A DNA stretch of 64,000 nucleotides, from assembly GCF_009914755.1 (NCBI RefSeq), contig NC_060930.1. The stretch is one strand, 5' to 3'. Positions within the stretch are counted from its first letter, which is position 1. Every line of letters begins with the position of its first letter. The notes beneath the pieces were generated by a model. It saw only the letters and a program-made list of their open reading frames with translations, ran no database searches and was not told where the DNA came from. The translations under genes and the position numbers were made by a program. Source of the DNA: the human T2T-CHM13v2.0 reference genome, Homo sapiens. Positions 40,353-42,356 of this stretch are shown here, in pieces.

Positions 40353-42356
40353 TTTTTTTTTTTTTTTTTTGAGACAAAGTCGCTCTTGTCTCCCAGGCTG
40401 GAGTGCAAAGGCACGATCTCGGTTCACTGCAACCTCTGCCTCCCCGGTTCAAGCGATTCTCTTTCCAGTCTCCCCAGTAGCTGAGATTACAGGCGCCTGC
40501 CACCACGCCCAACTAATTTTTGTATTTTTAGTAGAGACGGGGCTTCACAATGTTGGCCAGGCTGTTCTCAACATTGTGTTCCCAACACAACGTTGGCCAG
40601 GCTGACCTCAGGTGATCCGCCCGTCTCAGCCTCCTAAAGTGCTAGTGAGAGGTGACAGCGTGCTGGCAGCCTTCACTCGCTCTGGGCACCTCTTTTCCAT
40701 GGGCTCCCACTTTGGCGGCACTTGAGCAGCCCTTCAGCCCGCCGCTGCACTGTGGGAGCCCCTTCCTGAGCTGGCCAAGGCCGAAGCCGGCTCCCTCAGC
40801 TTGCCGGGAGGTGTGGAAAGAGAAGCACGGACGGGAACTGGGGCTGGGCGCGGCGCTTGCGGGCCAGCGCGAGTTCCGCGTGGGTGTGGGCTCCGCGGGC
40901 CCCGCACTCGGAGCAGCCAGCTGGCCCCGCCGGCCCCGGGCAGTGAGGGGCTTAGCACCTGTGCCAGCAGCTGCTGTGTTCGACTTCGCGCCGGGCCTTC
41001 ACTGCCTCCCCGCGAGGCAGGCCTCGGGACCTGCGGCCCACCATGCCTGAGCCGCCCCCCAATCCCGGGCTTCTGCGCGGCCTGAGCCTCCCCGACGAGT
41101 ACCGCCCCCTGCTCCACAGCGCCCAGTCCCATCAACCATCCAAGGGCTGAGGAGCGCGGGCGCACGGCGCGGGACTGACAGGCAGCTCCACTTGCGGCCC
41201 CAGTGCGGGATCCACTGGGTGAAGCTAGCTGGGCTTCTGAATCTGGCGGGGACTTGGAGAATCTTTATGTTTAGCTAAGGGATTGTAAATACACCAATCA
41301 GCACTCTGTCTCTAGCTCAAGGTTTGTAAACACACCAATCAGCACCCTGTGTCTAGCTCAGGGTTTGTGAACGCACCAATGGACACTGTATCTAGCTACT
41401 CTGGTAGGGACTTGGAGAACCTTTATGTCCAGCTAAGGGATTGTAAATACACCAGTCAGCACTCTGTATCTAGCTTAAGGTTTGTAAACACACCAATCAG
41501 CACCCTGTGTCTAGCTCAGGGTTTGTGAATGCACCAATTGACACTCTGTATCTAGCTACTCTGGTAGGGACTTGGAGAAGCTTTACATCTAGCCAAGGGA
41601 TTGTAAATGCACCAATCGGCACTCTGTATCCAGCTGAAGGTTTGTAAATACAACAATCAGCACTCTGTGTGTAGCTCAGGGTTTGTAAACACACCAGTGG
41701 ACACTCTGTATCTAGCTAACCTAGTAGGGAGGTGGAGAACTTTTGTGTCTAGCTCAGGGATTGTAAACGCACCAATCAGCACCCTCTCAAAACAGACAAT
41801 CAGCTCTCTGTAAAACAGACCAATCGGCTCTCTGTAAAATGGACCAATCAGCAGGATGCGGGAGGGGCCAGATAAGAGAATAAAAGCAGGCTGCCTGCCC
41901 TAGCAGTAGCAACTTGCTCAGATTTATGTTTCCGTAGTGTGGGAGCTTTGTTCTTTCACTGTTTGCGGTAAGTTTTGTCAGTGCTCAGGGTTTGGGTGTG
42001 CATTGTCTTTGTGAGTTGTCACGCTCACTGTGAGAGCATGCTGCTTCGCTCTGAAAGCCAGGAAAACCCTGAACCCCGCAGGAAGAACAAACAATTCCAG
42101 ACGCGCGACCTTAGAGACCTGTAACACTTAGCGCGAAGGTCTGTAGGTTCATGCCGGAGCCAGTGAGACCATGAACCTCTAGGAAGAAAAAACTCAGAAC
42201 GTATCTAAAATGCCAGAAGGAACTAACTACGGACACGCTGCGTTTCAGAACTTTAACACTGAACGCGAGAGTCTGCAGCTTCATTAAGTCAGTGAAACCA
42301 ATAAACCCCCCAATTGTGGACACTAGGATTACAGGCGTGAGTCCCCACACCTGGCC
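40353..42356 (-). mobile_element. Antisense Alu split by the LTR12 insertion (parts 40353-40645 and 42323-42356)
   Basis: ...ctcctaaagtgCTAG [LTR] CTAGgattacaggcgtgag restores a contiguous Alu. Confidence 0.92.
40646..42322 (+). mobile_element. Solo LTR12 (LTR12C-like, HERV9/ERV9)
   Basis: TG...CA ends (tgagaggtgacagcg...ggaca); 4-bp TSD CTAG at 40642-45 and 42323-26. GC-rich 5' U3, tandem ~40-bp CCAAT-containing subrepeats (~41220-41850), and a GATA plus AATAAA-type TATA box at 41870-41884. Confidence 0.96.

What the first reader, a model, noticed from the sequence alone, without database searches (positions are those of the whole stretch)
41870..41975. LTR12 poly(A) signal converted into a consensus splice donor (AATAAA -> GGTAAG)
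Seen: tttgcgGTAAGTtttg at 41962-41977, with GCG|GTAAGT at 41968-41973. Recalled: the LTR12 R region reads tttgcAATAAAtcttg here. Three A>G changes would remove the termination signal and create a strong 5' splice site ~60 nt after the predicted TSS (~41905). Inference: the solo LTR is configured as promoter plus first exon for a spliced + strand transcript (lncRNA or chimeric), like LTR12C transcripts in testis or after DNMT/HDAC inhibition.
Basis: partly seen in the sequence, partly recalled or inferred. Interest (0 to 1): 0.7.

Follow-up and report, generated by a model that had tools for sequence, protein, structure and literature searches.

The report
Retroviral terminator mutated into splice donor
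A solitary retroviral LTR next to RIOK1 has had its stop-and-polyadenylate signal mutated into a splice start, so it now serves as promoter and first exon of an annotated non-coding RNA; this is ordinary in kind, but the stretch just after its start site is unusually mutation-rich.

Summary
Confirmed. Window 41968-41973 reads GTAAGT after GCG. All three RefSeq models of lncRNA LOC102724234 end exon 1 at 41967.

The element is a 1,677-bp solo LTR (40646-42322, TG..CA) with CTAG on both sides, inserted in an Alu-like repeat. It aligns end to end with two copies that papers name LTR12C, at 82% and 80%.

At the aligned site, 49 of 64 other copies and 36 of 46 in a less biased sample carry the poly(A) hexamer plus T. 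The window has G at three of its A positions.

The motif alone is not above chance: 9 found against 7.65 expected. What counts is where it sits and the annotated junction. Expression was not testable here.

New observation: the conversion lies in a sharply bounded, heavily mutated zone. Private non-CpG divergence is 16-18% in R-U5, against about 4.5% in U3 and a 3-4% median in other copies. The cause is unresolved.

Age: an ordinary to oldish LTR12C, about 20 million years or less by published estimates.

The parts
40344..40641 (.). Left part of the Alu-like repeat into which the LTR inserted (left bound approximate)
   Evidence: RefSeq masked repeat 40344-40573 and sequence read. The Alu name is recalled; no tool assigned it.
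40642..40645 (.). Left copy of the 4-bp target-site duplication, CTAG
   Evidence: the same four bases flank both ends of the LTR.
40646..42322 (+). Solo LTR of the ERV9/LTR12 family, LTR12C-like, 1,677 bp, TG...CA
   Evidence: 82% and 80% end-to-end identity to the ZFP90 and beta-globin LCR copies, which PMC11853044 names LTR12C; the T before GAGAGG is shared by 9 of 9 copies, and the bases before it vary; 6 of 6 copies end ACACA while the window has ACA then CTAG, so the 3' bound is uncertain by 2 nt.
40646..41240 (+). GC-rich 5' extension of about 600 nt, typical of LTR12C/D/E
   Evidence: 82-87% identical to 15 full-length copies; absent from the LTR12 copies at ADH1C and mostly absent from the LTR12D at DHRS2. 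PMC8767690 and PMC11853044 describe this feature. A RefSeq 'H3K4me1 hESC enhancer' element overlaps it at 40618-41119.
41242..41782 (+). U3 tandem repeats (41-nt units, 160-nt super-unit) with CCAAT and GATA motifs
   Evidence: period 41, 11.1 copies; period 160, 3.4 copies, 88% matches; 9 CCAAT in 41242-41870 and 3 exact copies of the GATA motif printed in PMC11853044.
41869..41896 (+). Core promoter 28-mer, including the TATA-like AATAAAA at 41879-41885
   Evidence: 2,045 genomic matches at up to 2 mismatches, 0 in controls, and the 100 listed are all exact. One search places AATAAAA. PMC11853044 describes AATAAAA about 30 nt upstream of the start site.
41899..41910 (+). Start-site motif (CCTAGCAGTAGC here); canonical LTR12C start site expected at about 41905-41911
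   Evidence: 9 of 12 positions match the start-site motif printed in PMC11853044. RefSeq 5' ends of 10 LTR12C-driven genes map to 41893-42005, 6 of them at 41905-41911.
41883..41967 (+). Exon 1 of lncRNA LOC102724234 as annotated. The model's 5' end lies 22-28 nt upstream of the canonical start site.
   Evidence: three Gnomon models. TA, not AG, precedes 41883, so it is not an acceptor.
41967..41973 (+). GGTAAGT: the former poly(A) hexamer position (41967-41972), now the 5' splice site (intron starts at 41968)
41890..42322 (+). R-U5 zone of excess substitution, peaking at 41975-42024
   Evidence: Private non-CpG divergence is 16-18%, against 2-5% in U3 and a 3-4% median in other copies.
42300..42305 (+). 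New AATAAA inside intron 1, 332 nt after the donor
   Evidence: In alignment A1 the four other copies lack it.
42323..42326 (.). Right copy of the target-site duplication, CTAG
42327..42357 (.). Right remnant of the split Alu-like repeat (right bound approximate)
   Evidence: Sequence read. The name is recalled.
45083..45173 (+). Exon 2 of LOC102724234, shared by all three models
   Evidence: AG before it, GTATGT after it.
53715..53752 (+). Alternative last exon (XR_007076495.1)
   Evidence: AG before it.
54186..54219 (+). Alternative last exon (XR_007076496.1)
   Evidence: AG before it.

Best explanation
A solo LTR12C (ERV9 family) inserted into an Alu-like repeat 7.6 kb downstream of RIOK1, in the same orientation. 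Its U3 promoter is intact. In R, the hexamer that in most copies is the poly(A) signal now reads GGTAAG followed by T. It differs from the common state at three positions, each G where the copies have A. This removes the cleavage signal about 60 nt after the start site and puts a strong U1-binding 5' splice site in its place. Transcripts that start in the LTR are therefore spliced from 41967 to an acceptor at 45083 instead of ending in R. That gives the annotated lncRNA LOC102724234. Shown here: the sequence, the family state, the element's anatomy and the annotated junctions. Inferred: that the LTR promoter fires at this locus, that losing the signal and gaining the donor is what permits the long transcript, and in which tissue. 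The three changes are part of a dense run of substitutions confined to R-U5. They are best read as a by-product of that run, not as a selected change.
For: Sequence and junction. Family state at the site: 23 of 29 copies, 49 of 64, 36 of 46. Element anatomy: TG..CA ends and CTAG duplication; 41-nt repeats with 9 CCAAT; the 28-nt core promoter is identical to many copies; end-to-end similarity to two copies named LTR12C in print. Start site: RefSeq 5' ends of ZFP90, IRGM, TP63, PGPEP1L, ACSBG1 and LOC101927902 map to window 41905-41911. This is the only strong donor-like site in R-U5. Framework in print: new transcripts gain U1 sites downstream of the start site, LTRs are enriched at their promoters, and a U1 site cancels poly(A) signals within about 500 bp (PMC4697840, passages). 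LTR12C is the commonest LTR source of chimeric transcripts in oocyte, early embryo and testis (PMC8767690, passages).
Against: No expression data were available, and the models are Gnomon predictions whose supporting reads I could not see. The annotated 5' end (41883) sits in the TATA-like box, 22-28 nt upstream of where other LTR12C genes start. The start-site motif is altered at 3 of 12 positions. None of the nine other copies with a GT-donor hexamer at this site (eight GTAAGT, one GTGAGT), nor L032, sits at an annotated gene 5' end by gene bounds, so a donor here is not enough by itself. Other LTR12C promoters drive genes while keeping the hexamer (GBP5, ZNF80, SCHLAP1, ACSBG1, LINC01419), so losing it is not required either. 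No function of the lncRNA is known: one paper holds the name, in a GWAS table.
Confidence: 0.8

Rival explanations
1. The donor is real in sequence but the transcript is rare noise. The LTR is normally silenced, the Gnomon models rest on a few reads, and the locus has no biological role.
For: Only predicted (XR_) models exist. One paper mentions the gene, in a GWAS table. PMC11853044 (passages) states that LTR12 copies are heavily methylated and silenced. The conversion can be explained by the local burst of substitutions without selection.
Against: Three isoforms share two canonical junctions. A RefSeq hESC H3K4me1 element overlaps the LTR. The excess substitution starts at the start site, as expected if the promoter has been active in the germ line or early embryo.
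Confidence: 0.4
2. The R-U5 half of this LTR was already divergent when it integrated. Either it came from a different ERV9 lineage through template switching at the first strand transfer (U3 from one genome, R-U5 from another), or the strong-stop DNA was edited before integration. On this reading the donor was born with the insertion.
For: The break in divergence falls at the U3/R border, and the excess runs to the end of U5, which is exactly the extent of strong-stop DNA.
Against: No copy in the reference is closer than 76% over R-U5, so no donor lineage is visible. The changes are a broad mix, 34 transitions and 29 transversions, with no G-to-A dominance and no TpC context. Other copies with high R-U5 excess (ZFP90, PGPEP1L, L032) carry largely their own changes. 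Density peaks 70-170 nt after the start site rather than being flat.
Confidence: 0.15
3. The progenitor of this copy never had the canonical hexamer, so fewer than three changes occurred at this locus.
For: AGTAAAT is a recurrent state: 6 of 64 copies, 4 of 46, and 33 of the 59 pattern matches. One of the three differences could therefore be inherited.
Against: The canonical state holds in 77-78% of copies. The copies closest to the window over the whole LTR mostly carry it.
Confidence: 0.1
4. Exon 1 is not LTR-initiated but belongs to read-through or upstream transcription from RIOK1, which lies on the same strand and ends at 33080.
For: Same orientation, 8.8 kb apart. The annotated 5' end (41883) is not at the canonical start site.
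Against: TA, not AG, precedes 41883. The intact promoter core lies directly upstream. No model joins RIOK1 to this exon.
Confidence: 0.05

Closest known systems
LTR12C copies that serve as promoters of host genes (ZFP90, IRGM, TP63, GBP5, PGPEP1L and others; Table 1 of PMC11853044)
   Same: Same family, same promoter core and same start-site position. Each is a solo LTR supplying a first exon to a downstream transcript.
   Different: Here the first exon ends at a donor made from the LTR's own poly(A) hexamer. Where the other genes' first exons end could not be seen, because only gene bounds are held off chr6. Several keep the hexamer. The product here is an uncharacterised lncRNA.
LTR12C-derived splice acceptor in CHM (PMC11853044, section 10)
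   Same: A splice site that arose inside an LTR12C after fixation.
   Different: That one is an acceptor used by a host gene passing through. This one is a donor used by the LTR's own transcript. The review calls LTR12-derived splice sites uncommon and reports the 12 known ERV9 splice sites as lying outside the LTR.
U1-PAS axis in young genes (Almada et al. 2013, seen only as a reference; Ruiz-Orera et al. 2015, PMC4697840, passages)
   Same: Gain of a U1 site and loss of a poly(A) signal just downstream of a start site, at an LTR-derived promoter.
   Different: Both events happen in the same six bases, whereas the published pattern is statistical and concerns separate motifs.
Germ-line mutation hotspot at transcription start sites (PMC12658150, abstract; PMC13712754, abstract and passages)
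   Same: Excess substitution within a few hundred bases of a start site. It is reported for lncRNA start sites too and is tied to testis or early-embryo activity.
   Different: Here the excess lies only downstream of the start site. I saw no published magnitude to compare with the roughly four- to six-fold excess measured here. The link to promoter use among LTR12C copies is weak (p = 0.02-0.04 in the less biased sample).
Suppression of the 5' LTR poly(A) site by a downstream splice donor in complex retroviruses (recalled textbook knowledge; not seen in any call)
   Same: U1 binding near a promoter-proximal poly(A) signal lets transcripts run on.
   Different: A solo LTR has no downstream viral donor. 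Here the signal itself became the donor.

Membership tests
ERV9 / LTR12 family | U3 with 5-17 tandem repeats of about 41 nt carrying CCAAT (NF-Y) and GATA motifs (PMC11853044) | tested here: met
   period 41, 11.1 copies, 41272-41717; 9 CCAAT and 3 exact copies of the printed GATA motif.
ERV9 / LTR12 family | AATAAAA box about 30 nt upstream of a start site inside the printed 12-nt inverted-repeat motif (PMC11853044) | tested here: met
   AATAAAA at 41879. The motif position 41899-41910 matches 9 of 12. The 28-nt core is identical to many copies.
ERV9 / LTR12 family | U5 with 72-bp B repeats (PMC11853044) | tested here: inconclusive
   Tandem Repeats Finder reports no period-72 array in 41980-42322. 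The region does align collinearly with the U5 of other copies. It is the most diverged part of the LTR.
ERV9 / LTR12 family | LTR ends TG...CA with a short target-site duplication | tested here: met
   TGAGAGGT...TGTGGACA with CTAG on both sides. The 5' end is shared by 9 of 9 copies. The 3' end is 2 nt shorter than the ACACA seen in 6 of 6 copies.
LTR12C subfamily | 5' extension of about 600 nt (shared with LTR12D and LTR12E; PMC8767690) | tested here: met
   40646-41240 aligns at 82-87% with 15 full-length copies. It is absent from the ADH1C LTR12 copies.
LTR12C subfamily | End-to-end likeness to copies named LTR12C in print, without the indels of LTR12D | tested here: met
   82.0% over 1,704 columns to the ZFP90 copy and 80.1% over 1,720 to the beta-globin LCR copy. 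The DHRS2 LTR12D matches only query positions 1-180 and from 572 onward. No LTR12E, LTR12B or LTR12_ exemplar was available.
LTR12C subfamily | Assignment by RepeatMasker/Dfam library models | not testable with these tools
   No repeat library is on hand, and the masked-repeat table carries no family names.
LTR-initiated spliced host transcripts (transpochimeric or cryptic-start-site transcripts) | Start site inside the LTR and splicing from the LTR-derived exon to downstream exons | tested here: met
   RefSeq models, canonical junctions and start-site mapping. This rests on annotation, not reads.
LTR-initiated spliced host transcripts (transpochimeric or cryptic-start-site transcripts) | Expression in testis, oocyte or embryo, or induction by DNMT/HDAC inhibitors | not testable with these tools
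   No reads or CAGE data are available here, and supplementary tables of PMC8767690 and PMC11317136 that may list this locus are closed.
Start-site mutation hotspot | Excess mutation centred on an active germ-line start site | tested here: inconclusive
   The excess begins at about 41850-41900 and peaks at 41975-42024. It lies downstream only. Germ-line activity of this LTR was not testable.

The most novel reading that the evidence does not exclude
In a subset of LTR12C copies, this one most of all, the roughly 430 nt just downstream of the start site have accumulated four to six times more non-CpG substitutions than the adjoining U3 and than the same stretch in sister copies. The sense strand has shifted toward G and T. 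If this records transcription-linked mutagenesis in the germ line or early embryo, then promoter activity itself erodes the LTR's terminator and throws up new splice donors. That would be a self-reinforcing route from solo LTR to spliced gene. The thousands of LTR12C paralogues would then offer an internally controlled way to measure the start-site hotspot over about 20 million years.
Probability: 0.3. Interest if true: 0.75.

Novelty: new member of a known kind. Interest (0 to 1): 0.4.

Why it matters
The locus shows, within one hexamer, the two steps thought to turn a stray promoter into a gene: loss of an early poly(A) signal and gain of a U1 site. It happens in a family (LTR12C) that is the main LTR source of new transcripts in the human germ line and early embryo. 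It adds a donor to the short list of splice sites known inside LTR12 copies. The accompanying burst of substitutions downstream of the start site also matters. If it is transcription-linked, LTR paralogues could become a natural gauge of start-site mutagenesis. It also warns that LTR divergence clocks should leave out R-U5 of active copies.

Tried and rejected
Checks that led nowhere or went against an idea:

- Chance test: GGTAAGT is no commoner in the window than in shuffles. The case therefore rests on position, not on the motif.
- The bacterial-type promoter and terminator scan is irrelevant to a human LTR and was ignored.
- The composition profile of 38000-47000 is dominated by repeats and gave no usable skew signal for the intron.
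- The Rfam scan of the whole window found nothing in the LTR or the lncRNA. Its only hit was an SRP/Alu-like match at 32148-32294.
- A closer relative of the R-U5 part was sought twice. Nothing exceeds 76% identity, but only 40 of 1,496 and 40 of 240 candidates were scored.
- APOBEC/AID-like editing was rejected. The 5' neighbour of changed C columns shows no bias (C 8 of 25, A 9 of 37, T 7 of 25, G 6 of 26).
- Strand asymmetry looked strong in pairwise rates. Counted as events it is not significant: C>G 10 against G>C 2, p = 0.23; A>G 11 against T>C 2, p = 0.09; C>T 13 against G>A 8, p = 1. Only the shift in skew remains. GC skew is +0.01 against a background of -0.26 to -0.07, and TA skew is -0.04 against -0.22 to -0.04.
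- The link between R-U5 excess and promoter use was p = 0.0018 against copies chosen by likeness to the window. It fell to p = 0.039 (9 against 44) and 0.021 (12 against 44) against the less biased sample. Two newly found promoter copies, LINC01647 and CYP2J2, are not elevated.
- Absolute dating by a fixed rate was rejected. The star-method branch includes differences among source elements, so I give a relative age plus the printed time frame.
- Literature: no paper holds both LTR12C and RIOK1. LOC102724234 occurs in one paper, in a GWAS table. The search for LTR12 with 'splice donor' gave 26 papers. I read only the review among them, and it names no donor inside an LTR12.
- Supplementary tables were closed, so lists of LTR12C-driven transcripts (PMC8767690, PMC11317136) that may include this locus were not seen.

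Rows dropped before counts:

- One search left out L001 and L046 (the window itself) and L054 and L048 (second copies of L005 and L009).
- One search also left out L058 and L059 (large regions) and nine gene 5' regions with no LTR12 or only a fragment: LINC01194, CGREF1, KCNN2, SCIN, RAE1, SYNGR1, TENM1, CCR4 and SEMA4D.
- One search dropped 14 of 60 fetched copies that cover fewer than 380 of the 434 R-U5 columns.
- Three loci are the same places as L022, L045 and L016.
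Full report
**Observation.** Window 41962-41977 reads TTTGCGGTAAGTTTTG, with GTAAGT at 41968-41973 after GCG. RefSeq carries three Gnomon models of lncRNA LOC102724234. All have exon 1 at 41883-41967 and exon 2 at 45083-45173, so the annotated intron begins at this GT. Exon 2 is preceded by AG and followed by GTATGT, and both alternative last exons in the window are preceded by AG. GGTAAGT as a bare motif is not remarkable. It occurs 9 times in the window against 7.65 +/- 2.39 in shuffles. Within 41883-42322 it is the only site that matches the 9-nt donor consensus at 7 or more positions.

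**The element.**
- The site lies in a 1,677-bp LTR (40646-42322) that begins TG and ends CA. CTAG flanks it on both sides, and it splits an Alu-like repeat (the Alu name is recalled). No inner retroviral sequence is present, so it is a solo LTR.
- The 5' bound is firm. In 9 of 9 other copies the T before GAGAGG is shared and the bases before it vary.
- The 3' bound is uncertain by 2 nt. Six of six copies end ACACA, while the window has ACA followed by CTAG.
- The anatomy matches the printed description of ERV9/LTR12 (PMC11853044: sections 3 and 10 read in full, other passages by search):
  - a GC-rich 5' part of about 600 nt;
  - 41-nt tandem repeats, 11.1 copies;
  - 9 CCAAT and 3 exact copies of the printed GATA motif;
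  - AATAAAA at 41879;
  - 20 nt further on, a 12-mer that matches the printed start-site motif at 9 of 12 positions.
- The 28-nt core promoter 41869-41896 has 2,045 genomic matches at up to 2 mismatches and none in the control. The 100 matches listed are all exact.

**Name.**
- Over its whole length the LTR is 82.0% identical to the copy that holds the 5' end of ZFP90. It is 80.1% identical to the copy between HBE1 and OR51B4. PMC11853044 lists both as LTR12C.
- The LTR12 copies at ADH1C lack the 5' part and are about 70% identical. The LTR12D at DHRS2 lacks most of it.
- I therefore call it LTR12C-like. LTR12E could not be excluded, and no repeat library was available.

**Family state at the site.**
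- The seven bases opposite 41967-41973 are the poly(A) hexamer plus T in 23 of 29 copies and in 49 of 64.
- The same state holds in 36 of 46 copies of a sample drawn only by an exact promoter core on chromosomes 1 and 2. In that sample 60 copies were fetched and 14 dropped as too short, and 3 loci are shared with the earlier set.
- The other states were AGTAAAT (6), AGTAAGT (2) and seven singletons.

**Is the conversion unique?**
- A pattern made of the window's left context plus GTAAGT found 59 places at up to 1 mismatch and none in the control. Nine keep GTAAGT, the window included.
- One other place reads GGTAAGT, at chr4:46.77 Mb in sense inside COX7B2.
- Of the rest, 34 carry GTAAAT, 15 carry ATAAGT and 1 carries GTGAGT.
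- A further converted copy (chr17:68.96 Mb, L032) has too diverged a context to match the pattern.
- None of the others lies at a gene 5' end by gene bounds. Transcript tables exist only for chr6, so alternative first exons elsewhere would be missed.

**Start site.**
- RefSeq 5' ends of ten other genes that begin in LTR12C copies were mapped through pairwise alignments to window coordinates. They fall at 41893-42005, six of them at 41905-41911.
- The Gnomon 5' end at 41883 lies in the TATA-like box and may be imprecise. It is preceded by TA, so it is not an acceptor.

**Mechanism.**
- In most LTR12C copies a poly(A) signal sits about 60 nt after the start site.
- In print, U1 sites downstream of a start site favour elongation and cancel poly(A) signals within about 500 bp. 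Young human transcripts gain U1 sites, and LTRs are enriched at their promoters (PMC4697840, passages). Almada et al. 2013 was seen only as its reference.
- Here the signal itself has become a U1 site, so both steps occur in one hexamer.
- A new AATAAA at 42300, 332 nt into the intron, lies within that protected distance.
- That the LTR fires, and where, is inferred. LTR12C is reported as the commonest LTR source of chimeric transcripts in oocyte, early embryo and testis (PMC8767690, passages). A RefSeq 'H3K4me1 hESC enhancer' element overlaps 40618-41119.
- The donor is neither necessary nor sufficient for promoter use. Several LTR12C promoters keep the hexamer, and other converted copies have no annotated gene start.

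**Age.**
- Without a consensus I used a star method. The private branch equals the mean distance to the other copies minus half their mean mutual distance.
- Over U3 (1,065 non-CpG columns) the window's branch is 4.5%, against a median of 3.5% (range 2.4-5.6) for 15 full-length copies. Over all sites it is 6.5% against 5.4%.
- The copy is therefore as old as, or somewhat older than, typical LTR12C copies.
- PMC8767690 places the spread of the 5' extension in hominoids about 20 million years ago. PMC11853044 places the main expansion between the gibbon and gorilla splits.
- No primate genome was available to test presence or absence.

**An unexpected feature.**
- Divergence is very uneven along the LTR. 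Identity to 15 full-length copies is 82-87% in the 5' part and 89-94% in the repeats and promoter. From about 41850 it drops to 78, 70, 75, 77 and 84% in successive 100-nt bins. The copies stay 84-91% alike among themselves in those bins.
- The window's private non-CpG branch in R-U5 was measured three ways:

| Comparison set | Window | Other copies |
|---|---|---|
| 51 copies chosen by likeness to the window | 18.4% | median 3.1%, max 11.1% |
| 15 full-length copies | 16.2% | not computed here |
| Less biased sample (n = 46) | 18.2% | median 3.8%, 95th percentile 9.0%, max 12.7% |

- It ranks first of 65.
- At CpG-prone columns the window is ordinary, 22.4% against a median of 18.1%.
- Columns where the window's base is rare among copies number 0-1 per 25 nt upstream. 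They rise from about 41850 and peak at 7 per 25 in 41975-42024. In all there are 63 of 388 scored columns, 34 transitions and 29 transversions.
- No genomic copy is closer than 76% over this part.
- At the U3 rate, 16-18% would imply an age several times that of the family. The excess is therefore not elapsed time.

**What the burst might be.**
- For a link with transcription:
  - The onset is at the start site.
  - The sense strand has shifted toward G and T: GC skew +0.01 against -0.26 to -0.07, and TA skew -0.04 against -0.22 to -0.04.
  - The next most extreme copies include known promoters: ZFP90 12.9-13.3% and PGPEP1L 11.8-12.5%.
  - Published work reports a mutation hotspot at start sites, including lncRNA start sites, that depends on testis expression or arises in early embryos (PMC13712754, abstract and passages; PMC12658150, abstract).
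- Against, or limiting:
  - The promoter association weakens from p = 0.0018 to p = 0.02-0.04 in the less biased sample, and two promoter copies there are not elevated.
  - Event counts show no significant strand asymmetry and no deaminase context.
  - I could not test whether the excess continues into the flanking intron.
- A rival is that R-U5 was already divergent at integration, through template switching or editing of strong-stop DNA, whose extent it matches. No donor lineage is visible, and the outlier copies carry largely their own changes. They do share some: the observed distance between the window and the ZFP90 copy is 25.9%, against 34.1% for the sum of their branches.
- Copies with a donor hexamer at the former hexamer site tend to have raised R-U5 branches. 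The eight other pattern-matched copies that keep GTAAGT range from 2.4% to 11.9%, the GTGAGT copy is at 10.8%, and L032 is at 13.6%. This fits a by-product reading.

**Verdict.** In kind it is a new member of a known class, an LTR12C-promoted spliced lncRNA. It has a neat twist: the terminator hexamer itself became the donor. The regional burst of substitutions is the more unusual observation and remains unexplained.

Noticed in passing
window 41850-42322: Sharply bounded excess of substitutions in R-U5. Private non-CpG divergence is 16-18%, against about 4.5% in U3 and a 3-4% median in other copies. It starts at the start site and peaks just after the donor.
   Followed up: yes
L034 (ZFP90 LTR12C), L067 (PGPEP1L), L032 (chr17:68.96 Mb), L079 (DHRS2 LTR12D): Other copies show the same pattern of ordinary U3 and a much-diverged R-U5 (12-15%). 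All four have also lost the canonical hexamer.
   Followed up: partly
window 41899-41910: The printed inverted-repeat start-site motif is changed at 3 of 12 positions. The two inner changes keep the two arms complementary (CTA....TAG).
   Followed up: no
window 42300-42305: A new AATAAA has arisen near the end of U5, inside intron 1, where the four copies aligned have none.
   Followed up: no
G000 chr4:46,771,537-46,771,565 (-), locus L152: A second LTR12 copy carries the same GGTAAGT at the former hexamer, in sense inside COX7B2. Its R-U5 is not unusually diverged (5.6%). Whether it supplies an alternative first exon could not be seen.
   Followed up: partly
window 40618-41119: A RefSeq functional element 'H3K4me1 hESC enhancer' overlaps the LTR's 5' extension.
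   Followed up: no
loci L089-L148: 14 of 60 LTR12 copies with an exact promoter core cover only 262-326 of the 434 R-U5 columns. This is consistent with a shorter U5 (fewer B repeats) in a sizeable minority.
   Followed up: no
window 40555-40615: The host Alu-like repeat contains a short internal duplication (the stretch around 'ttggccaggctg' occurs twice).
   Followed up: no
window 32148-32294: The only Rfam hit in the window is Metazoa_SRP at 70.8 bits, just above its threshold of 70, in the last intron of RIOK1. It is most likely an Alu/7SL-derived repeat.
   Followed up: no
G000 chr1:59,847,681 (-) and chr1:11,153,788 (+): RefSeq gene 5' ends of CYP2J2 and LINC01647 fall 43 and 66 nt after the start of an exact LTR12 promoter 28-mer. 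These genes also have an LTR12-derived 5' end in this annotation.
   Followed up: partly
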